From: a bacterium
GTDB taxonomy: Bacteria; Patescibacteriota; Saccharimonadia; Saccharimonadales; SZUA-47
NCBI GenBank assembly: GCA_043753565.1
Contig: JAYUWM010000074.1
Span: 25,273-89,272 of the forward strand
DNA: 64,000 nt
Direction: 5' to 3'
This document shows, piece by piece, positions 1-23,945 of this stretch; positions within the stretch are counted from its first letter, which is position 1; every line of letters starts with the position of its first letter. The translations under genes and the position numbers were made by a program. Below the pieces are notes generated by a model. It was given only the letters and a program-made list of their open reading frames with translations. It was not told the origin of the DNA and did not search any database.

Positions 1-45
1 CAGAGTAAGTTAGAAGTAGCCGATTCTAGTAGGTATAGCCATAGA

Positions 46-5768: not shown

Positions 5769-5803
5769 AAAGCCCCTATCTTAATTAAGATAGGGGCTTT
5801 TTT
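5769..5803 (+). terminator. rho-independent terminator after tape measure gene
   Basis: Perfect 16-bp stem aaagcccctatcttaa/ttaagataggggcttt followed by a T-run. Confidence 0.8.
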
Positions 5804-5822
5804 ACGCTTATAAAAATTATAC

Positions 5823-5851
5823 TTGACATATATAGCTAGCTATAGTATAAT
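5823..5851 (+). promoter_or_regulatory. sigma70-type promoter (TTGACA-17-TATAAT)
   Basis: TTGACA at 5823-5828, 17-bp spacer, TATAAT at 5846-5851. Confidence 0.75.
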
Positions 5852-5881
5852 AGATAAAATATTGTGCATACTGGAGAAAAA

Positions 5882-12660: not shown

Positions 12661-12987
12661 ATGCCAAATTTATATAAAGTCCTTGGACAATCAAACCCAG
12701 CAGCGGCCACACTGACTACACTATACACAGTGCCTACAGCAACTTCGGCGGTCTGCTCTACTCTAGCAATCTGTAATCAAGGCGTTTCAACTTTATACCG
12801 AGTCGCAATTCGCCCAGCAGGAGCGCTCATTTCAGCTGCACACTATATTGTTTTCGATGCTGCGGTCGCTTCATTAGATACTGTTTTCCTTACGTTAGGC
12901 ACTACACTTGCAGCAACTGACGTTATTTCGGTACAAGCAGGTACAACAACAGTCAGCTTTAATCTTTCTGGCACGGAGATTACTTAA
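12661..12987 (+). CDS. small fibre-associated protein (hypothetical)
   Basis: 108 aa; starts 1 nt after the fibre stop and overlaps the next gene start (TAATG). Confidence 0.5.
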   Translation: MPNLYKVLGQSNPAAATLTTLYTVPTATSAVCSTLAICNQGVSTLYRVAIRPAGALISAAHYIVFDAAVASLDTVFLTLGTTLAATDVISVQAGTTTVSFNLSGTEIT

Positions 12988-15440
12988 TGAGTAGCCGCAC
13001 AGCGTCACGAAGCGGGCTTGTTGGAAAAAGCCTTTCTGTACCTTTCATCCATCCAAAGGGGGGAACCTCCAGTGCAGCATGGTACCGTGAACCTAGTTGG
13101 TTAGCACTACCTGACGTTACAGGGCTACAAAGACTTGTCGGTGTCGTTGCGATTTGGCCTGATTCGAACTTTCTTGCAGTGACATGCGCTGGGAGTCTTG
13201 GTTACCTGGTTGATTGGGGAGATGGCACGTCTTCCACAGTAGCCACAACAGTTCAAGCCGACAAACAGTACGATTTTAACTCTGTTTCTCTTGCAAATAC
13301 AAACGCACCCTGCACCTTGACAGATATAGGCGATTTGGTTACGCGTACTGCACACGGGTACACCAGCGGACAAACAGCAAAGTTTTTCAACATTTTAACG
13401 ACTACCGGGTTAACAGATAACTACACATACTTTGTTATCAACGCTACAGCAGACACTTTCCAAGTGGCGTTGACTCTAGGAGGTGCCGCGATTGCATTGA
13501 CACTTGATGGAACTGCGACACTGTTACCGTATAAGCAAGCTATAGTAAGTATAACACCTCAAAGCACAGGGACGTTAACATCACTGAATTTGAACGTAAA
13601 ACATGCAGCAATTGGTGGAAGTATTTTACCTGCGTACACAGCTGGCTGGCTGGATATAGCTATTGCTGGAACGAGTTTAGCTACTTTAACTATTGGGGGC
13701 GTTACTGTATATCAAGGGGATCTAGAACAGGTTAAGATAGTTGGTGGTAATAGCATCACGTCCATGGCCACTATGTTCAGTAACTGCTACTCCTTACAGT
13801 CAGTACCACTGTTCAGTACAGCGGGTGTAACGAATATGGTTAGTATGTTCCTTAACTGCTACTCCTTACAGTCTGTACCGCTATTCAATACAGGGGCTGT
13901 AACGAGTATGGCTAGCATGTTCAACGCCTGCTCCTCCTTACAGTCTGTACCACTGTTCAGTACAGCGGGTGTAACGAATATGGCTAGTATGTTCAACGCC
14001 TGCTACTCCTTACAGTCAGTACCGCTATTCAATACAGTGGCTGTAACGAGTATGTCTAGTATATTCAGTAGCTGCCCTTTATTACAGTCAGTACCTCTGT
14101 TTAATACAGCGGCTGTAACGAGTATGTCTAGTATGTTCAGTAGCTGCTCCTCACTACAGTCAGTACCGCTATTCAATACAGCGGGTGTAACGAATATGGT
14201 TAGTATGTTCATTAACTGCTACTCCTTACAGTCTGTACCGCTATTCAATACAGGGGCTGTAACGAGTATGGCTAGCATGTTCAACGCCTGCTCCTCACTA
14301 CAGTCAGTACCATTGTTTAATACAGCGGCTGTAACGAGTATGACTAGTATGTTCGCTAACTGCCCATCCTTACAGTCAGTACCACTGTTTAATACAGCGG
14401 TTGTAACGAATATGTCTAACATGTTCAACGCCTGCTTCTCTTTACAATCAGTACCTCTCTTCAATACAGGGGCTGTAACGACTATGTCTACTATGTTCAG
14501 TGGTGGCTGCTTCTCCTTACAGTCTGTACCACTGTTCAATACAGTAGCAGTTACCGATATGACCAGCATGTTCAGTAACTGCTCCTCCCTACAGTCAGTA
14601 CCGCTGTTCAATACAGCGGCTGTAACGAGTATGTCCACTATGTTCAACTCCTGTCCCTCCTTACAGTCAGTACCACTGTTCAATACAGCGGCTGTAACGA
14701 GTATGACTAACATGTTCAACACCTGTAGGTCTTTACAGTCAGTACCGCTGTTCAATGCAGGATTGATAGGATTTGCAACTGGCATGTTTTCAAACTCCAC
14801 TCAATTAGCTGTAGGCAGGTTGAATAATTTAAAAGTTGCTATCAGCTACGCAGGGTGTAAGTTATCTAAAACCGCCTTGGAAGATATTTTCAATGGGCTT
14901 GGAAAAGCATCAGGTGCACAGACATTTACCATCGGAACAAACTGGGGGGCAGCCCCTGTAGTATCTCTTTCTGGAACTACTACAGAGGGCTCTCTCACTG
15001 TGACAATGGCAAGCACTACAGGAATTGCAGTTGGGATGCAAGTAACTGGGACCAACTCTCCACTGACAAAAGATGGAGCCGTATCACTACAAGACGCGGG
15101 AGACACTGTTACGCGAGCTAGTCACCTACTACTAAATGGTACTGAAGTTTCGTTTGCAACCATTGTTAATACTACTGGTATTGCTACATTTACCCCATAC
15201 TTTGTTATCAACGCCACAGTAAATACTTTCCAAGTGGCACTGACTGCAGGAGGTGCCGCAATTGCGTTGACCCTTGACGGTACGGGTTCAATTCTGTATC
15301 GAACAGTGGTTGAGGCTATCAACCCAAACGTATCTGTAACGCTTTCGCGCCCCGCCACAGCAAGCGGATTGACAACGCTTACCTATCGTCAGTTAACAAC
15401 AGGAACGGCTATTCTTAAAGGCTGGACTGTTTCAGGATAA
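12987..15440 (+). CDS. BspA-like leucine-rich-repeat (DUF285-type) adhesin / receptor-binding protein
   Basis: 14 tandem 24-aa units xCxSLQSVPLFNTxxVTxMxxMFx, flanked by two paralogous ~68-aa domains (aa 113-180 and 703-770). Confidence 0.8.
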   Translation: MSSRTASRSGLVGKSLSVPFIHPKGGTSSAAWYREPSWLALPDVTGLQRLVGVVAIWPDSNFLAVTCAGSLGYLVDWGDGTSSTVATTVQADKQYDFNSVSLANTNAPCTLTDIGDLVTRTAHGYTSGQTAKFFNILTTTGLTDNYTYFVINATADTFQVALTLGGAAIALTLDGTATLLPYKQAIVSITPQSTGTLTSLNLNVKHAAIGGSILPAYTAGWLDIAIAGTSLATLTIGGVTVYQGDLEQVKIVGGNSITSMATMFSNCYSLQSVPLFSTAGVTNMVSMFLNCYSLQSVPLFNTGAVTSMASMFNACSSLQSVPLFSTAGVTNMASMFNACYSLQSVPLFNTVAVTSMSSIFSSCPLLQSVPLFNTAAVTSMSSMFSSCSSLQSVPLFNTAGVTNMVSMFINCYSLQSVPLFNTGAVTSMASMFNACSSLQSVPLFNTAAVTSMTSMFANCPSLQSVPLFNTAVVTNMSNMFNACFSLQSVPLFNTGAVTTMSTMFSGGCFSLQSVPLFNTVAVTDMTSMFSNCSSLQSVPLFNTAAVTSMSTMFNSCPSLQSVPLFNTAAVTSMTNMFNTCRSLQSVPLFNAGLIGFATGMFSNSTQLAVGRLNNLKVAISYAGCKLSKTALEDIFNGLGKASGAQTFTIGTNWGAAPVVSLSGTTTEGSLTVTMASTTGIAVGMQVTGTNSPLTKDGAVSLQDAGDTVTRASHLLLNGTEVSFATIVNTTGIATFTPYFVINATVNTFQVALTAGGAAIALTLDGTGSILYRTVVEAINPNVSVTLSRPATASGLTTLTYRQLTTGTAILKGWTVSG
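13323..13526 (+). repeat. intragenic domain duplication, copy 1
   Basis: Encodes DIGDLVTRTAHGY...YFVINATADTFQVALTLGGAAIALTLDGTATLL. The paralogous copy is at 15093-15296. Confidence 0.8.
13753..14797 (+). repeat. 14 x 72-bp coding tandem repeat (LRR units)
   Basis: Periodic ...tccttacagtcagtaccgctgttcaatacagcggctgtaacgagtatg... Segments 13821-13936 and 14181-14296 differ at one base. Confidence 0.9.
15093..15296 (+). repeat. intragenic domain duplication, copy 2
   Basis: Encodes DAGDTVTRASH...YFVINATVNTFQVALTAGGAAIALTLDGTGSIL. Confidence 0.8.
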
Positions 15441-15445
15441 TCATT

Positions 15446-15622
15446 ATGCCATTTTTCAAAATAGACAATGCTGAAATTGAAGAAACTACCCACATTGACG
15501 GGCCTGGATTCAGTCTTTCGGAGGCCGGAAAGACTGATTACATTTACCCTATAGAAGGGTGGTATTGGTTTGCTTCGGTGACTGATAGTAGAGTCTTCTT
15601 TAACTTGCCCGAACCTGCGTAA
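15446..15622 (+). CDS. small hypothetical protein (58 aa)
   Basis: ATG 15446 lies 6 nt after the LRR gene stop: MPFFKIDNAEIEE...EGWYWFASVTD... Below the ORF-track cutoff. Confidence 0.45.
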   Translation: MPFFKIDNAEIEETTHIDGPGFSLSEAGKTDYIYPIEGWYWFASVTDSRVFFNLPEPA

Positions 15623-15624
15623 AT

Positions 15625-15660
15625 AAAAATGCTCTGCGTATTTTTAGGCAGGGCATTTTT
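15625..15660 (+). terminator. rho-independent terminator
   Basis: Stem aaaaatgctctgc/gcagggcattttt ending in a T-run. Confidence 0.7.
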
Positions 15661-15664
15661 ACTC

Positions 15665-15693
15665 TTGACCCTAAACTGCGTTTGTGGTATAAT
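15665..15693 (+). promoter_or_regulatory. sigma70-type promoter (TTGACC-17-TGgTATAAT)
   Basis: -35 at 15665-15670, -10 at 15688-15693, with an extended -10 TG. Confidence 0.7.
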
Positions 15694-15784
15694 ATACCAG
15701 GCCTAGTAATAAGGTATATTATACAGCTTCTCAACACTGATACTTAGGTGTTCAACATATTTTTTACTGTACGAGGTTACTAAC

Positions 15785-17011
15785 ATGGCATTTGACCCAC
15801 TAAAACCAGCAACAACTGATAACTTCCTAACAGACTTTACACAAGGTATTAAGGCCAACTCAGTAGCATTAGCTCAGTGGCTTGACAGTACGAATGTGAC
15901 CATTACAGGCGCGACTCCTCCTTTTGCCAAGCGATACAATAGAGCTAGTGGCTTTATTGAGGAGTACAGTGGTACGGTGTGGGGTACCCTTACTGTGAAC
16001 ATCCCCGGAAATGCTGCAACTGCTACGAATGCAGTTAATGCTGTTAATGCCACGAATGCAGTTAACTCCACGAATGCAGTTAACTCTACGAATGCCACTA
16101 ATGCTGTCACAGCCACCAACCTAGCCGCAGGTGCAGCAGGCACAATCCCCTGGCAGTCCGCACCCGGCACTACTCTGTTTACTGTGGCAGGTACAGCTGG
16201 TATGGTATTAGTATCAAATGGAGCAGGTGCACCCACTTGGACGTCTGCCCCTACTTTCTCAGCTCCTACGCTTGGAACACCTGTATCTGGCAACCTTGTC
16301 AATTGTTCGATCCCATACTCACAATTGACTGGCACTATTCCAATTTGGAATCAAAGTACCACAGGCACCGCTGCAAGCGCAGACACGGCAGCTGCCTGCA
16401 CAGGCAACGCAGCCACGGCAACTACCTCTAATGGCTCATTCCGGTCCATACAGGTCTTTACAGCTTCTGGAACGTATACCAAGCCTGCCGGGCTGGTGCG
16501 GGCGAAGATTACTGTGGTGGGCGGCGGCGGCGGAGGTTCTGGTGCAAACGGAACCCCCTCTAGCGGCGGAGGAGGCGGAGGTACGGCTATCAGGGTACTT
16601 TCTGCTTCAAGTATTGGGACAACTGAAACTATCACTATTGGTGGCGGAGGAGGAGGAGGCTCCGCTGGATCTCCCGGTGGTGGCGACGCATACTCCCCTA
16701 TTCCGCCTGTCCCGGCTGGCGGCGGAGGCGGCGCTGGCACTTCCTCTATGGGCACACTGGCGTCTGCAACAGGAGGGGGTGCAGGAAACCCCGCTAGCGG
16801 AGGAGCTGGCGGGGGTACAGGCACGTCAGGAAATATAAATCTTGGCGGGGGCGGCGGGGGTCCTACTGGAGGATCCAGTTTTATGGGTGGTGGCGGCCCA
16901 GTAAACGGCGGCCCGGGTAGAGCCTTCGGCGGAGGCGGTGGAGGCTCTCTTGCCTATACCAGTGGCGGAGCCGGCGCAGCCGGCGTAGTATTTATTGAGG
17001 AGTTCTTCTAA
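15785..17011 (+). CDS. glycine-rich fibre-like structural protein
   Basis: N-terminal fibre-like region, (T/S)NAVN(A/S) hexapeptide repeats, then FTASGTYTKPAGLVRAKITVVGGGGGGSG and long poly-Gly blocks. Confidence 0.7.
   Translation: MAFDPLKPATTDNFLTDFTQGIKANSVALAQWLDSTNVTITGATPPFAKRYNRASGFIEEYSGTVWGTLTVNIPGNAATATNAVNAVNATNAVNSTNAVNSTNATNAVTATNLAAGAAGTIPWQSAPGTTLFTVAGTAGMVLVSNGAGAPTWTSAPTFSAPTLGTPVSGNLVNCSIPYSQLTGTIPIWNQSTTGTAASADTAAACTGNAATATTSNGSFRSIQVFTASGTYTKPAGLVRAKITVVGGGGGGSGANGTPSSGGGGGGTAIRVLSASSIGTTETITIGGGGGGGSAGSPGGGDAYSPIPPVPAGGGGGAGTSSMGTLASATGGGAGNPASGGAGGGTGTSGNINLGGGGGGPTGGSSFMGGGGPVNGGPGRAFGGGGGGSLAYTSGGAGAAGVVFIEEFF
16021..16110 (+). repeat. 18-bp coding tandem repeats (NAVNxT hexapeptides)
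   Basis: acgaatgcagttaa(c/t)nc(c/t) iterated about 5 times. Confidence 0.75.
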
Positions 17012-17451
17012 TGAAAAAAGTATTGATTTTTGAAAACAAAATCCACGACATTGTTGAAGTAGGGGCCGAGTTTCCGGTAGCCCGGGAAATGAAGTGGGTT
17101 GATGCGCCAGATACTGTAGACAGCGCCACACACGAATTCAATGGCAAGGCATTCGACCTTAAACTCATTCTAGTGACACCTCCTGTGCAAGCCTTCGTGG
17201 CAACCCTTGCGCCGTTAGACTTTCTTGAGCGATTCACGCTTACAGAGCAGCTTGCCATTACGACTGCAGCAATGCAGTCTCCCATGGTGCGCTTGTGGTA
17301 CGACAAGATGATTGCTGCACGCAGTATCGACGTTGCGGATGCTCGCGTAATTGCCGGTCTGGACGCGCTGATTGCAGCAGGCCTGCTATCAGCTTCACGC
17401 AAATCTGTGCTGTTGATACCCGCGGGCCAAATCCCAGTGGCCCTGCTATGA
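17011..17451 (+). CDS. hypothetical protein (cassette gene 2)
   Basis: 146 aa; TAATG overlap upstream and ATGA overlap downstream. Confidence 0.55.
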   Translation: MKKVLIFENKIHDIVEVGAEFPVAREMKWVDAPDTVDSATHEFNGKAFDLKLILVTPPVQAFVATLAPLDFLERFTLTEQLAITTAAMQSPMVRLWYDKMIAARSIDVADARVIAGLDALIAAGLLSASRKSVLLIPAGQIPVALL

Positions 17452-17837
17452 CGCAACCCGTAATTGCCTTAGGGTGCGTTGCAAACCTATTTTCCCGCAT
17501 GATGCGCTTTACCTACGCAGGGGATACAGAGCAAGGACATACGCACAATTTTGACCACCTTACGCTCCTTGCCAAAGGGAAGCTAAAGGTCACTGTCGAA
17601 GGCATGGCAACGGAGTTCAACGCGCCCCAGATGATTTACATCAAGGCCGACAAGAACCACGAACTTGTCGCCCTTGAGGACGACACACTGGCCTACTGCA
17701 TTCATGCCCTGCGTACAAAAGACGGCTCGGACATTCTTGACCCTGCCATGATTCCTGCGGGTGTTAATCCACTAGGTCTGGCCCAACCTATTTGTACTAT
17801 CACTACTGAAATTAATGTACCCAGCGTTGTTCTCTAA
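17448..17837 (+). CDS. cupin-like small protein (putative)
   Basis: Start trimmed to ATG 17448 (ATGA overlap with upstream stop). G-H-T-H-N-F-D-H plus a beta-rich region resembles a cupin metal site. Confidence 0.5.
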   Translation: MTQPVIALGCVANLFSRMMRFTYAGDTEQGHTHNFDHLTLLAKGKLKVTVEGMATEFNAPQMIYIKADKNHELVALEDDTLAYCIHALRTKDGSDILDPAMIPAGVNPLGLAQPICTITTEINVPSVVL

Positions 17838-17873
17838 CAGCTACGTATACTCATTGGCTCAGAAAGACGTCTT

Positions 17874-18341
17874 ATGAAAATCGTTTTTATTTACGGCAAC
17901 CATCTGAGCGCCCGTCTAACCAAGTTATTCACCGGCTCAACCTGCTACCACATTGGCTTTACTGACGGCATCAAGTTTTGGGACATGCACAAAATACGTC
18001 GTCGCCGCTTGTGGGACGGGCTGTACCCACCTGCTCGCTACCTGCTGGCTGATTGCCCAGTGCCCGTCACGGCTGAGTACCTTGACCACAAACTGGACAC
18101 CGACAACAGCACCTATGGCTACATCGATTATTTGCTGTTCGGCCTGCGCGGGTTTTACCACTTGGTGGGCAAGTCAACACGCAATGCCGGTGGCGTGATC
18201 TGCTCGGAGATGGTAGCCGACGACTTGGCAGCTTGCGGCTGGACAAAGCGGTTCTACGAAGTGCCTTCGCCCGCTGATTTGGAAGTATCTGTGCTGGGGC
18301 GAATAGACTACATGGCTAGAGATGTAGCTACCCGACCCTAA
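17874..18341 (+). CDS. permuted papain-fold (YiiX/LRAT-like) hydrolase, putative
   Basis: 155 aa with His (TCYHIGF) upstream of Cys (GGVICSEMV). Assignment from motif memory only. Confidence 0.35.
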   Translation: MKIVFIYGNHLSARLTKLFTGSTCYHIGFTDGIKFWDMHKIRRRRLWDGLYPPARYLLADCPVPVTAEYLDHKLDTDNSTYGYIDYLLFGLRGFYHLVGKSTRNAGGVICSEMVADDLAACGWTKRFYEVPSPADLEVSVLGRIDYMARDVATRP

Positions 18342-18359
18342 ACTGTTAAAACCGTAAAT

Positions 18360-18395
18360 AAAAATGCCCTGCTTATTTTTAGGCAAGGCATTTTT
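18360..18395 (+). terminator. rho-independent terminator
   Basis: Stem aaaaatgccctgc/gcaaggcattttt with a T-run. Confidence 0.65.
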
Positions 18396-18399
18396 ACTC

Positions 18400-18428
18400 T
18401 TGACCCTAAACTGCGTTTGTGGTATAAT
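18400..18428 (+). promoter_or_regulatory. sigma70-type promoter (TTGACC-17-TATAAT)
   Basis: -35 at 18400-18405, -10 at 18423-18428. Confidence 0.7.
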
Positions 18429-18506
18429 ATAGCAACCCTAGTAATAAGGTATAAATTTTCACAATATATAAGATAGGCTCTATCTTATTTTTATAAGGGC
18501 TTTCTT

Positions 18507-18863
18507 ATGGAAGTTACTAACCTAGCCCAAGTATTAGGCATTTTAATTGCATTTTTAGGTATTATAGCTTTCGGGCTACAAACTATTATGAAAAACTGGA
18601 AAAGTAGCTCTACTGAGTCTTCTCTGTTAACGCTTATGCATGGCGAACTAGAACGTATGTCTAGTCAAAATACTACTTTATCTAATGAAATTGGTAAGCT
18701 ACAAGTTGAACTAATTAAGCTTAGTAACCAGCTGTCTAGACTGAATGTAGAGAATCAAAAACTACAAGAAGAGGTAGCCATGCTAAATAAGGAAATCTCT
18801 AGACTGCACACTATTATGCTACGCCAAACAGTGGAATTTCCAGATGTACTCAAAAAAGATTGA
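18507..18863 (+). CDS. membrane-anchored coiled-coil protein
   Basis: N-terminal TM segment (LGILIAFLGIIAFGL) followed by heptad-rich LQVELIKLSNQLSRLNVENQKLQEEV. Confidence 0.55.
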   Translation: MEVTNLAQVLGILIAFLGIIAFGLQTIMKNWKSSSTESSLLTLMHGELERMSSQNTTLSNEIGKLQVELIKLSNQLSRLNVENQKLQEEVAMLNKEISRLHTIMLRQTVEFPDVLKKD

Positions 18864-23476: not shown

Positions 23477-23745
23477 AAATTATCCTTATACTAATTCTCT
23501 CATTATTTTTATCGGCGTGCGGAGTTTTCAAAAAAGACCCTGGCCCTGTTGTTTATACGAATGAACCTGTTCAAATAAACAAAGAAGCTTTAGAGCACTG
23601 TAGCCTTTTAAAAGAAGGTTTGGTAATAACTACTTTTGAAGATGCCCTACTAGCTTACTCTGATGTTGCAACCTTATACGCAACATGCAGCAACAAACAA
23701 GCTACTAGTATTAAGTTATTAAAACAATTCGGAGGTACTAAATAA
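23473..23745 (+). CDS. o-spanin lipoprotein (Rz1-like), putative
   Basis: GTG start overlaps the upstream stop. Lipobox LFLSAC at the end of the signal peptide. Confidence 0.65.
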   Translation: MKIILILILSLFLSACGVFKKDPGPVVYTNEPVQINKEALEHCSLLKEGLVITTFEDALLAYSDVATLYATCSNKQATSIKLLKQFGGTK

Positions 23746-23945
23746 TGGACTTAGAAAAAATAGGTGGGCGCAAGTTCATTATTTCTATGCTTATAGGAGC
23801 AGCTAGCACCATTTTAATGTGGTTTGCAAAAATTGGAGATTCTGCGTATACTACAATTATATTAGGTACTGTAGCTGCGTATATTACTGGAAATACCTAT
23901 GAGAAAGTAAAAACAAATGCAACTGAGCAAGCACTTCTCCCTTGA
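23745..23945 (+). CDS. holin, putative
   Basis: 66 aa with two hydrophobic helices, immediately upstream of the endolysin. Confidence 0.5.
   Translation: MDLEKIGGRKFIISMLIGAASTILMWFAKIGDSAYTTIILGTVAAYITGNTYEKVKTNATEQALLP

What the first reader, a model, noticed from the sequence alone, without database searches (positions are those of the whole stretch)
15621..18453. Four-gene cassette bracketed by a duplicated 98-bp terminator-promoter module
The segment aaataaaaatgc(t/c)ctgc..attttaggca(g/a)ggcatttttactcTTGACCctaaactgcgtttgtggTATAATata...ctagtaataaggtata occurs at 15621-15718 and again at 18356-18453. Each copy is a hairpin terminator followed by a TTGACC-17-TATAAT promoter with an extended -10 TG. 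The 2.6 kb between them holds four translationally coupled genes: a Gly-rich fibre-like protein, an unknown, a cupin-like protein and a papain-fold-like protein. This looks like a self-contained transcription unit inserted, or excisable, by recombination between the repeats, in the manner of a moron. Deleting one repeat plus the cassette would leave a seamless genome.
Basis: seen in the sequence. Interest (0 to 1): 0.6.

Follow-up and report, generated by a model that had tools for sequence, protein, structure and literature searches.

The report
Duplicated terminator-promoter module brackets acquired fibre cassette
An uncultured T5-like phage carries a foreign four-gene tail-fibre cassette set between two near-identical 101-bp terminator-plus-promoter modules, an arrangement like the 'mobile regulatory cassettes' known from T4-like phages, so it is a clear but fairly ordinary example of how phages swap host-recognition genes.

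Summary
A 101-bp unit (15618-15718 and 18353-18453) occurs exactly twice in the assembly, with 95/101 bases identical. Each copy is a stable hairpin with a T-run, followed 3 nt later by TTGACC-17-TATAAT with an extended -10 TG. Copy 2 sits at a junction conserved across about 50 related phage loci, where a single terminator+promoter precedes the g18507 homologue. Copy 1 is the extra copy. No relative has a second copy or any cassette gene.

The cassette is compositionally foreign: GC3 is 0.43-0.65 against 0.23-0.32 in the backbone. It is also mosaic. The end of the fibre gene plus g2 and g3 are 80% nt identical to a 55% GC contig. g4 is 87-88% identical to other 55-59% GC contigs and has homologues in Polaromonas Mu-like prophages. 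The genes encode a Gly-rich fibre, an XkdW-like protein, a cupin and a permuted-papain-like protein.

The upstream DUF285 block is a second portable receptor-binding unit.

Best reading: an acquired host-range operon plugged in at the phage's own regulatory junction, PeSL-like in mechanism and moron-like in architecture. Interest is moderate to low: a new member of a known kind.

The parts
15618..15718 (+). Module copy 1, the extra copy. Terminator hairpin at 15624-15661 with a T-run, -35 TTGACC at 15665-15670, extended -10 TG at 15685-15686, and -10 TATAAT at 15688-15693. The stop codon of the upstream 58-aa ORF (15620-15622) lies inside the repeat.
18353..18453 (+). Module copy 2, at the ancestral, family-wide junction. 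Hairpin at 18359-18396 with a T-run, -35 at 18400-18405 and -10 at 18423-18428. It drives g18507 and the genes downstream.
15652..15696 (+). The 45-nt stretch identical in both copies (it recurs at 18387-18431). It covers the T-run, -35, spacer and -10. It is the likeliest crossover zone, and the point where k=31 contigs of an independent assembly break.
15785..17011 (+). g1, 408 aa. A tail-fibre-type protein with 3-residue (9-nt) NAV/TNA repeats and a C-terminal Gly-rich domain (PF21722; phrog_863 and phrog_6202). GC3 is 0.43.
17011..17451 (+). g2, 146 aa. A fibre-adjacent accessory protein whose C-terminal half is XkdW-like (its homologue P0244 carries PF09636). It is found next to g3 in L171 and L246. 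GC3 is 0.52.
17448..17837 (+). g3, 129 aa. A small cupin belonging to a family of more than 1,200 proteins at 72-87% identity, found beside fibre genes. Its roughly 12-aa C-terminal extension and the GC3 drop there mark the junction with the g4 piece. GC3 is 0.55.
17874..18341 (+). g4, 155 aa. A probable permuted papain-like (YiiX/3KW0-type) cysteine hydrolase with H26 and C110 invariant. GC3 is 0.65. It is 87-88% nt identical to 55-59% GC contigs. Its homologues are the last gene of fibre modules in Polaromonas Mu-like prophages.
12661..15622 (+). The upstream three-gene receptor-binding unit: a 108-aa protein, an 817-aa DUF285/BspA-type LRR protein and a 58-aa protein. It recurs intact in many unrelated phages (GC 34-60%). 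It forms the left flank of copy 1.
18507..18863 (+). g18507, 118 aa, a TM plus coiled-coil protein. This is the backbone gene that follows the terminator-promoter junction in all relatives, and it was used as the anchor.
18334..18345 (+). An extra copy of the phage-wide 12-mer GACCCTAAACTG. It overlaps the g4 stop codon, 7 nt before copy 2. The same 12-mer forms the -35 and spacer of both promoters (15667-15678 and 18402-18413).

Best explanation
The window lies on a complete, roughly 103-kb genome of an uncultured lytic T5-like phage. In this phage family a compact regulatory junction always precedes the g18507 gene. The junction is an intrinsic terminator, followed within a few bases by a strong sigma-70 promoter with an extended -10. 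In this phage the junction is present twice, and the two copies bracket a 2.6-kb block of foreign genes.

How it works (inferred from sequence):
- The hairpin of copy 1 ends the long upstream structural transcript after the DUF285 unit.
- The promoter of copy 1 re-initiates transcription into g1-g4.
- The hairpin of copy 2 ends that transcript, and its promoter re-initiates into g18507 and the downstream genes.
- The cassette is therefore an insulated operon, driven by the same promoter as the backbone genes that follow it. It should be expressed with the same timing and strength.

What it adds: a second receptor-binding set. This comprises a Gly-rich fibre, an XkdW-like accessory protein, a cupin and a permuted-papain-like hydrolase. 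It sits beside the DUF285 receptor-binding unit and probably broadens or changes host recognition.

How it arose (inferred): the genes came from phages of higher-GC hosts, in at least two pieces. The duplication of the module is what one expects from one of two routes. Either a circular or linear intermediate carrying the cassette plus one module recombined into the resident module, which is the Campbell-type PeSL model. Or unequal crossing-over took place between two sibling phages that carried different cassettes upstream of the same junction.

The 101-bp direct repeat, with its 45-nt exact core, remains a substrate for homologous recombination. That would delete or exchange the cassette cleanly. 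The phage encodes its own SbcCD-type recombination nuclease.
For: Repeat and signals.

Copy 2 is at the ancestral position. The closest relative (L003/L087, 65-81% aa identity in backbone genes) has one hairpin with a T-run followed by cTTGACCCTAAACTGtGTTTGTGtTATAAT directly upstream of its g18507 homologue. The 47 non-identical upstream regions printed all show a hairpin with a T-run and a -35/-10 pair there. Forty-nine distinct junctions matched the strict TTGAC-17..19-TAnnnT pattern. The hairpin keeps pairing through compensatory changes in 6 of 7 pairs.

The duplication is private to this phage. No relative locus has a second copy of its own module.

The cassette is absent elsewhere. No homologue of g1-g4 occurs in 76 anchored loci or in L003. 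In many relatives the g9688 homologue abuts the junction.

Foreign origin. GC3 is 0.43, 0.52, 0.55 and 0.65 for g1-g4, against 0.23-0.32 for the backbone and 0.29 for g18507. Window 16967-17716 (the g1 3' end, g2 and g3) is 80% nt identical to L246, a 55% GC contig. g4 is 87-88% nt identical to L163 and L247 and 70-73% aa identical to Polaromonas prophage genes.

Fibre context. g3 and g4 homologues lie next to tail-fibre genes in unrelated phages.

Recombination machinery. SbcC- and SbcD-like genes lie at 32.5-35.3 kb.

Independent assembly. The contigs break at the exact core.

Precedent. PeSLs are roughly 100-bp terminator/sigma-70 promoter composites that flank variable genes, with one element at the same site in the sister phage (PMC2839356; PMC4122927).
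Against: - No strict empty site was found. That would be the 58-aa ORF, a single module, then g18507. No sibling strain of this phage is present in any collection searched.
- No read-level or experimental evidence exists for excision, mini-circles, promoter activity or termination.
- The donors found so far do not carry the module. How the foreign genes first came to lie between two copies of a phage-specific element is therefore not explained by homologous recombination alone. At least one illegitimate join is needed somewhere in the history.
- g1's N-terminal part has no detectable relative in this phage or its relatives. How the fibre docks to the virion is unknown, and it is not shown that the cassette is functional.
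- The perfect conservation of the promoter core could reflect selection or gene conversion rather than a recent event.
Confidence: 0.7

Rival explanations
1. The newcomer is the left block, not g1-g4. In this reading a fibre-type cassette lay directly upstream of the junction, as it does in the closest relative. The portable g12661-DUF285-58aa unit, together with a copy of the module, was then inserted upstream of it. The structure and the way it works are the same. Only the identity of the 'insert' changes.
For: - The DUF285 three-gene unit is itself portable and recurs intact in many unrelated phages.
- Its GC3 (0.42) is also above the backbone value.
- In L003 the genes directly upstream of the junction are fibre-type genes followed by small accessory genes. 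One of these is a 224-aa protein with a similar His...Cys layout, although its similarity to g4 is not significant.
- With direct repeats, either flank can formally be called the insert.
Against: - g2-g4 are much closer to their foreign relatives (80-88% nt) than the DUF285 unit is to its relatives (52-54% aa).
- g2-g4 also have the most deviant GC3 (0.52-0.65). They therefore look like the most recent arrivals.
- No relative of this phage family has either block, so the order of arrival is not resolved.
Confidence: 0.2
2. There is no mobility. The cassette is a long-resident part of this lineage. Its promoter-terminator arose by an internal duplication of the neighbouring junction. That duplicate is kept nearly identical by selection for co-regulation, or by gene conversion. 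The repeats play no role in gain or loss.
For: - All six differences lie outside the T-run, -35, spacer and -10, as expected under purifying selection on a working promoter.
- Both copies retain a stable hairpin.
- Other junctions of this phage also pair a terminator with a promoter, so this kind of punctuation is the norm here.
Against: - The cassette's GC3 is unameliorated, and its 80-88% nt identity to high-GC contigs argues for recent arrival.
- The cassette is absent from all relatives.
- The repeat has sharp edges, with no significant similarity beyond them. That looks like a recombination boundary rather than graded decay.
Confidence: 0.12
3. Assembly chimera. Two co-occurring phage strains share the module, and the assembler threaded a segment of one strain into the other.
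For: - The source is a metagenome-assembled contig.
- The donor-like sequences come from the same run series, SRR236171xx-SRR236172xx.
- A k=31 assembly cannot bridge the repeat.
Against: - The exact shared run is only 45 nt, while the contig's 98-nt terminal overlap points to a final k near 99. That k spans the core and reaches copy-specific bases on both sides.
- The two copies keep distinct variants.
- Even a chimera would require a strain in which g1-g4 are flanked by both module halves, which is the same biological structure.
Confidence: 0.04

Closest known systems
PeSL (promoter-early stem-loop) mobile regulatory cassettes of T4-like phages (Arbiol et al. 2010, PMC2839356; Comeau et al. 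2014, PMC4122927)
   Same: - A roughly 100-bp composite of a strong sigma-70-type promoter and a terminator stem-loop.
- Two copies bracket a variable gene block, while a relative has a single element at that site.
- The proposed role is the same: a homology patch for insertion, deletion and swapping that brings its own transcription signals.
   Different: - PeSLs form families of about 50 copies per genome. They are concentrated in hyperplastic regions of early genes and mostly flank single ORFans.
- Here only two copies share sequence.
- The phage here is T5-like, not T4-like.
- The module sits in the virion-gene block and brackets a four-gene host-recognition operon.
- Mini-circles and promoter/terminator activity were demonstrated for PeSLs. 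Nothing has been demonstrated here.
Morons of lambdoid and other temperate phages (first described for HK97 gene 15; review PMC3594210)
   Same: - An added, independently transcribed unit with its own promoter and terminator.
- A GC content different from that of its neighbours.
- Located inside the tail-gene region and absent from related phages.
   Different: - Morons are typically single genes expressed from a repressed prophage for the benefit of the lysogen, and their signals come in with the insert.
- This phage has no integrase on its contig and is of lytic T5 type.
- The cargo here is virion and host-range genes.
- The signals are duplicates of the recipient's own junction.
Dual receptor-binding fibre sets in T5-like phages (LtfA/LtfB of DT57C and DT571/2; PMC4728585, PMC10713586)
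   Same: A T5-type phage that carries two different receptor-recognition proteins side by side in the lateral-fibre region. This is the most variable part of the structural module.
   Different: - The proteins are not homologous to LtfA/LtfB. None of the searches of cultured phages with g1, g3 or g4 gave a match.
- No duplicated regulatory module was looked for in the DT57C locus. The paper was only listed in a search here, not read, so that comparison was not made.

Membership tests
PeSL regulatory cassette | Composite of a sigma-70-like promoter and a stem-loop terminator/attenuator within about 100 bp, in an intergenic position | tested here: met
   Hairpins of -21.1 and -18.8 kcal/mol with z about -5. 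TTGACC-17-TATAAT with an extended -10, scoring 11 of 12. All within 101 bp. This is sequence prediction only.
PeSL regulatory cassette | A multi-copy repeated motif family (tens of copies) concentrated in hyperplastic regions | tested here: not met
   The assembly holds exactly two copies. Other terminator+promoter junctions exist (window about 5.8 kb and C74 about 23.8 kb) but share no sequence with this one.
PeSL regulatory cassette | Flanks genes that differ between related phages, with a single element at the site in the relative | tested here: met
   A single module upstream of the g18507 homologue in L003 and at the junctions read in the other loci. No cassette genes in any relative. No duplicate in any relative. 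Caveat: the relatives are distant (43-66% aa identity in the anchor gene), and the left flank differs.
PeSL regulatory cassette | Recombination between flanking copies yields deletions and mini-circles | not testable with these tools
Exact-protein look-ups only showed contigs breaking at the repeat.
PeSL regulatory cassette | Occurs in T4-like myoviruses and acts as an early promoter | tested here: not met
   The DNA polymerase is closest, at about 47% identity, to T5-like phages such as pVp-1 and DT571/2. The module lies in the structural-gene block. The timing of expression is unknown.
Moron | Own promoter upstream and own terminator downstream, forming an independent transcription unit | tested here: met
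   The promoter of copy 1 and the hairpin of copy 2. Predicted, not measured.
Moron | Nucleotide composition differs from that of the surrounding genes | tested here: met
   GC3 is 0.43-0.65 against 0.23-0.32 in the backbone. The values drop sharply to 0.29 after copy 2.
Moron | Absent from related phages in which the flanking genes are adjacent | tested here: inconclusive
   The cassette is absent from all relatives. No relative has the same left flank (the DUF285 unit) next to the junction, so strict adjacency was not seen.
Moron | Carried by a temperate phage and expressed from the prophage to benefit the host | tested here: not met
   The only integrase-family hit in the assembly is on another contig, C60. 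The backbone is T5-like and lytic in type. The cargo is fibre-related.
Permuted papain-like (YiiX/3KW0-type) hydrolase, for g4 | Papain-like fold with the catalytic His placed before the Cys, both conserved | tested here: inconclusive
   The model has pLDDT 81 and pTM 0.78. The best PDB matches are 3KW0 (prob 0.98, TM 0.52, E 0.01) and 2IF6 YiiX (E 0.3). H26 and C110 are invariant in 24 homologues. There is no Pfam hit.

The most novel reading that the evidence does not exclude
The conserved terminator-promoter junction upstream of g18507 may be a general 'socket' in this family of freshwater T5-like phages. Receptor-binding cassettes would be plugged in and pulled out there by module-to-module recombination through PeSL-type mini-circles. 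That would extend the mobile-regulatory-cassette mechanism beyond T4-like phages and into virion host-range genes. The phage-wide 12-mer GACCCTAARCYG, which forms the -35 and spacer of both modules, might then be the binding site of a phage factor that controls these promoters or marks the exchange points.
Probability: 0.15. Interest if true: 0.55.

Novelty: new member of a known kind. Interest (0 to 1): 0.33.

Why it matters
If the reading is right, a short composite regulatory element can work both as operon punctuation and as a recombination handle. That would let a lytic phage stack or swap whole host-recognition operons without disturbing the expression of neighbouring genes.

The idea comes from T4-like phages. 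Here it appears in a T5-like phage, and for virion genes rather than early ORFans.

The case also points to three gene sets that travel with tail fibres across unrelated phages of freshwater bacteria. They are the small cupin, the permuted-papain-like protein and the DUF285 three-gene unit. None of the three has a match among cultured phages, and their role in adsorption is unknown.

For engineering, such an insulated module would be a natural insertion site for heterologous receptor-binding cassettes in laboratory phages.

Tried and rejected
1. Homology beyond the 101 bp. The 12/17-nt similarities downstream (15773 against 18510) and upstream (CCCGAACCT against CCCGACCCT) are not significant, with shuffle p = 0.09 and 0.14. 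The repeat therefore has sharp edges.
2. The 12-mer copy at 18334 as a relic of a third module or as a terminator-associated signal. Only 4 of 39 motif copies precede a terminator, against a background of 47 in 600. Rejected.
3. The 12-mer as a T5-type nick site. T5 and BF23 nicks are confined to one strand (PMC10644984). The motif here is on both strands, 23 plus and 18 minus. Not supported.
4. L177, where the DUF285 unit is followed by a promoter and a TM/coiled-coil gene, as an empty-site analogue. That protein is not significantly similar to g18507, E = 0.15. It is analogous only.
5. The L003 224-aa protein as a g4 homologue. BLASTP gives E = 0.12. Unproven.
6. Cultured-phage relatives. 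There was no match for the region, the module, g1, g3 or g4 in INPHARED.
7. Closer relatives. The promoter-core scan of IMG/VR found only the L003 contig. The GTDB genome scan found none. Forty relatives of the MAG lack the phage and g4.
9. Exact-protein look-up of g4. It is not on record. This is uninformative, because the window's own copy is not indexed either.
10. Rfam. There is no credible family in 15.4-18.7 kb.


Full report
**1. The observation**

The two segments are real direct repeats. The repeat finder gives 15618-15718 and 18353-18453, 101 nt at 94% identity. A base-by-base comparison shows six substitutions and no gaps. The substitutions are at 15633, 15638, 15651, 15697, 15700 and 15701. 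An exact run of 45 nt lies at 15652-15696.

Searching either the hairpin half or the promoter half with up to three mismatches finds only these two places in 64 kb. None of 100 shuffles gives a match. The whole 869-kb assembly holds exactly two copies.

Each copy folds into a 38-nt hairpin. The energies are -21.1 and -18.8 kcal/mol, with z about -5 and 0 of 200 shuffles as stable. An A-run precedes the stem and a T-run follows it, so the reverse strand folds equally well. This is the shape of a bidirectional intrinsic terminator.

Three bases after the T-run comes TTGACC-17-TATAAT with TG at -15/-14. These are the two best sigma-70-type sites in 10-24 kb, scoring 11 of 12. The consensus terminator scan missed the hairpins, probably because it read the loop as 10 nt.

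The four ORFs are as described. g1/g2 and g2/g3 overlap as TAATG and ATGA. g4 starts 36 nt after g3, so 'four translationally coupled genes' is true for only three of them.

Similarity does not extend beyond the 101 bp (p = 0.09 and 0.14).

**2. What the window is**

The window is part of contig C74, which is 103,308 bp with identical 98-nt ends and 40.7% GC. It is an apparently complete phage genome. It encodes:
- a bank of 17 tRNA genes;
- a family-A DNA polymerase, a DnaB-type helicase, a ribonucleotide reductase and SbcC/SbcD-like nucleases.

The polymerase is closest, at about 47% identity, to T5-like phages such as pVp-1 and DT571/2. The only integrase-family gene of the assembly is on another contig.

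The MAG's 40 nearest relatives are all 0.5-1.8 Mb genomes (most 0.6-1.2 Mb) that lack the phage. C74 is therefore probably a binned passenger, and the bin says nothing about the host. Earlier notes of this scan also call it T5-like and flagged a GC-rich island at 10.9-18.4 kb.

**3. The module is a conserved junction, normally single-copy**

The closest relative found is IMG/VR contig 3300033552_000020 (L003/L087), at 65-81% aa identity over backbone genes. It has one hairpin with a T-run followed by cTTGACCCTAAACTGtGTTTGTGtTATAAT directly upstream of its homologue of g18507, the gene that follows copy 2.

I anchored on that gene and collected 76 further loci from metagenomes and IMG/VR. The 47 non-identical upstream regions I printed all show the same architecture: a hairpin with a T-run followed within a few bases by a -35/-10 pair. 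In most the pair is TTGACA-17-TGgTATAAT, and in a few the -35 reads TTGTCA or TTGCAT. Forty-nine distinct junctions matched the strict TTGAC-17..19-TAnnnT pattern.

In an alignment of 20 diverse junctions, the T-run and TTGA are invariant. Six of the seven stem pairs are kept through double changes somewhere in the set.

No locus contains a second copy of its own module. The only extra hits are each hairpin matching itself in reverse. Copy 2 is therefore at the ancestral position, and copy 1 is an additional copy private to this phage.

Other junctions of this phage (window about 5.8 kb and C74 about 23.8 kb) also pair a terminator with a consensus promoter, but their sequences are unrelated.

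**4. The cassette is foreign and mosaic**

None of g1-g4 has a homologue in L003 or in the 76 anchored loci. In many of those loci the g9688 homologue abuts the junction, so the whole 10.8-18.3 kb region is a variable fibre region.

GC3 values:

| Genes | GC3 |
|---|---|
| Backbone genes | 0.23-0.32 |
| g1 | 0.43 |
| g2 | 0.52 |
| g3 | 0.55 |
| g4 | 0.65 |
| g18507 (right after copy 2) | 0.29 |

- **g4** belongs to a tight family of 355 proteins at 65-86% identity. Its members are the last gene of tail-fibre modules in Mu-like Polaromonas prophages and in a siphovirus-type contig. At the DNA level g4 is 87-88% identical to the 55-59% GC contigs L163 and L247.
- **g3** is a 117-aa-type cupin with more than 1,200 relatives at 72-87% identity. 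These lie beside fibre or GP38-like genes.
- **g2** has few relatives, and one of them carries the XkdW domain.
- **Linkage.** L246, a 55% GC contig, carries the 3' end of a Gly-rich fibre gene, then g2 and g3. It is 80% nt identical over window 16967-17716. The fibre-g2-g3 linkage therefore exists elsewhere. g4's nearest relatives have different neighbours. The join lies at the 3' end of g3, which has a 12-aa extension and a GC3 drop there.
- **g1** has a Gly-rich C-terminal domain (PF21722) and hits tail-fibre PHROGs.
- **g4 fold.** The model (pLDDT 81) best matches the permuted papain-like peptidase 3KW0 and YiiX. His26 and Cys110 are invariant.
- **Cultured phages.** Searches of INPHARED with g1, g3 and g4 gave no match.

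**5. The left flank is also a portable unit**

g12661, the DUF285 protein and the 58-aa ORF recur intact, in that order, in many IMG/VR phages with GC from 34 to 60%. The phage thus carries two independent receptor-binding cassettes in tandem, separated by copy 1.

Which one arrived last cannot be proved. The much closer foreign relatives and the more deviant GC3 of g2-g4 point to the right-hand cassette.

**6. Mechanism**

What is shown:
- two near-identical terminator+promoter modules;
- their position relative to the genes;
- the single-copy state in relatives;
- the foreign origin of the cassette.

What is inferred:
- Copy 1 ends the upstream structural transcript and starts a cassette transcript.
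- Copy 2 ends that transcript and starts the g18507 transcript.
- The cassette is therefore insulated and co-regulated with the downstream backbone genes.
- The duplication arose either by integration of a cassette-plus-module intermediate into the resident module, or by unequal crossing-over between siblings.
- The repeat can mediate clean loss or exchange. From general knowledge, the 45-nt exact core is longer than the minimal pairing length for homologous recombination. The phage also has its own recombination nuclease.

The stop codon of the 58-aa ORF lies inside the repeat, so a deletion would be seamless.

An independent k=31 assembly of run SRR23617191 yields contigs identical to the window. 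These end inside the exact core, each with its copy-specific variants. That confirms a true repeat, but it does not reveal any variants.

**7. Comparison with what is known**

The closest concept is the PeSL of T4-like phages. PeSLs are roughly 100-bp sigma-70 promoter plus stem-loop composites that flank variable genes. The sister phage has one element at the site, and recombination, deletions and mini-circles have been demonstrated (PMC2839356; PMC4122927).

This case shares the composite anatomy and the two-copy versus one-copy pattern. It fails the multi-copy-family criterion and lies in a T5-like phage, around virion genes.

The moron definition is an independent unit with its own promoter and terminator, deviant GC, and expression from a prophage (PMC3594210). 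It fits the architecture and the composition, but not the lifestyle or the cargo.

T5-like phages with two lateral-fibre proteins (PMC4728585) are a functional precedent for stacking receptor-binding proteins.

**8. Side observation**

The 12-mer GACCCTAARCYG is strongly over-represented on C74. Its 8-mer core occurs 41 times against 2.7 expected. It forms the -35 and spacer of both modules and of six other promoter-like sites. It occurs once more at the g4 stop codon, and it also lies in frame inside genes.

The closer relatives have a similar element in the spacer of the orthologous promoter. It is not linked to terminators and does not fit T5 nick sites. It remains unexplained; a phage-encoded regulator site is my guess.

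**9. Verdict**

It remains unproven for excision, and the label 'moron' is imprecise.

This is a new member of a known kind: PeSL-like and moron-like modular exchange. Interest is moderate to low at 0.33. Confidence in the main explanation is 0.7.

Noticed in passing
C74-wide; in the window at 15667-15678, 18334-18345, 18402-18413, and at about 1858, 4242, 19176, 27495(-), 27531(-), 40242(-), 50855(-): The non-palindromic 12-mer GACCCTAARCYG is strongly over-represented on the phage contig. Its core GACCCTAA occurs 41 times against 2.7 expected, and the other contigs are not clearly enriched. It appears as an extended -35 (TTGACCCTAAR) in 8 promoter-like sites, in intergenic positions, and in frame inside genes as Asp-Pro-Lys. 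There is a cluster of 10 copies on both strands in ORF-poor C74 800-3200. Relatives are only about 2-fold enriched, but all 32 of their copies lie on the strand of the anchor gene. It may be a binding site for a phage regulator.
   Followed up: partly
window 12661-15622: The three genes g12661 (108 aa), DUF285/BspA-type LRR (817 aa) and a 58-aa ORF form a unit. It recurs intact and in the same order in many unrelated IMG/VR phage contigs with GC from 34 to 60% (L172-L194). It is a portable receptor-binding module in its own right.
   Followed up: partly
window 17448-18341; loci L163-L171, L246-L248: The small cupin (more than 1,200 relatives at 72-87% identity) and the permuted-papain-like protein (355 relatives at 65-86%) are very conserved and always sit beside tail-fibre genes in unrelated phage backbones. 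These include Mu-like Polaromonas prophages and siphovirus-type and SU10-like contigs. Neither has a match in 50,697 deposited phage genomes. Their role in fibre biology is unknown.
   Followed up: partly
C74 ends (98-nt identical overlap); the whole assembly G000: C74 looks like a complete, circularly assembled 103-kb T5-like phage genome that was binned into a MAG. That MAG's relatives all have 0.5-1.8 Mb genomes (most 0.6-1.2 Mb) and lack the phage. The cassette's relatives point to betaproteobacterial hosts such as Polaromonas. The bin is probably not the host.
   Followed up: partly
window 18470-18494: In the 5' UTR of g18507, about 40 nt downstream of the copy-2 promoter, lies a small AT-rich hairpin followed by a T-run: AAGATAGGCTCTATCTT ATTTTTAT. 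It could be an attenuator. The 5' UTR of g1 has nothing comparable.
   Followed up: no
window about 5770-5860, and C74 about 23740-23830 (1.5 kb upstream of the window start): These are further compact terminator-plus-consensus-promoter junctions in the structural gene block, with sequences unrelated to the duplicated module. Terminator-promoter punctuation appears to be the rule in this phage's late region.
   Followed up: no
L158, L159, L161 (junctions upstream of g18507 homologues): The closer relatives carry a GACCCTAA-like element inside the spacer of the orthologous promoter, for example TTGACActatGACCCTAAcgtgGTATAAT. Its position is shifted relative to the window phage. This suggests a conserved regulatory site at this junction.
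   Followed up: no
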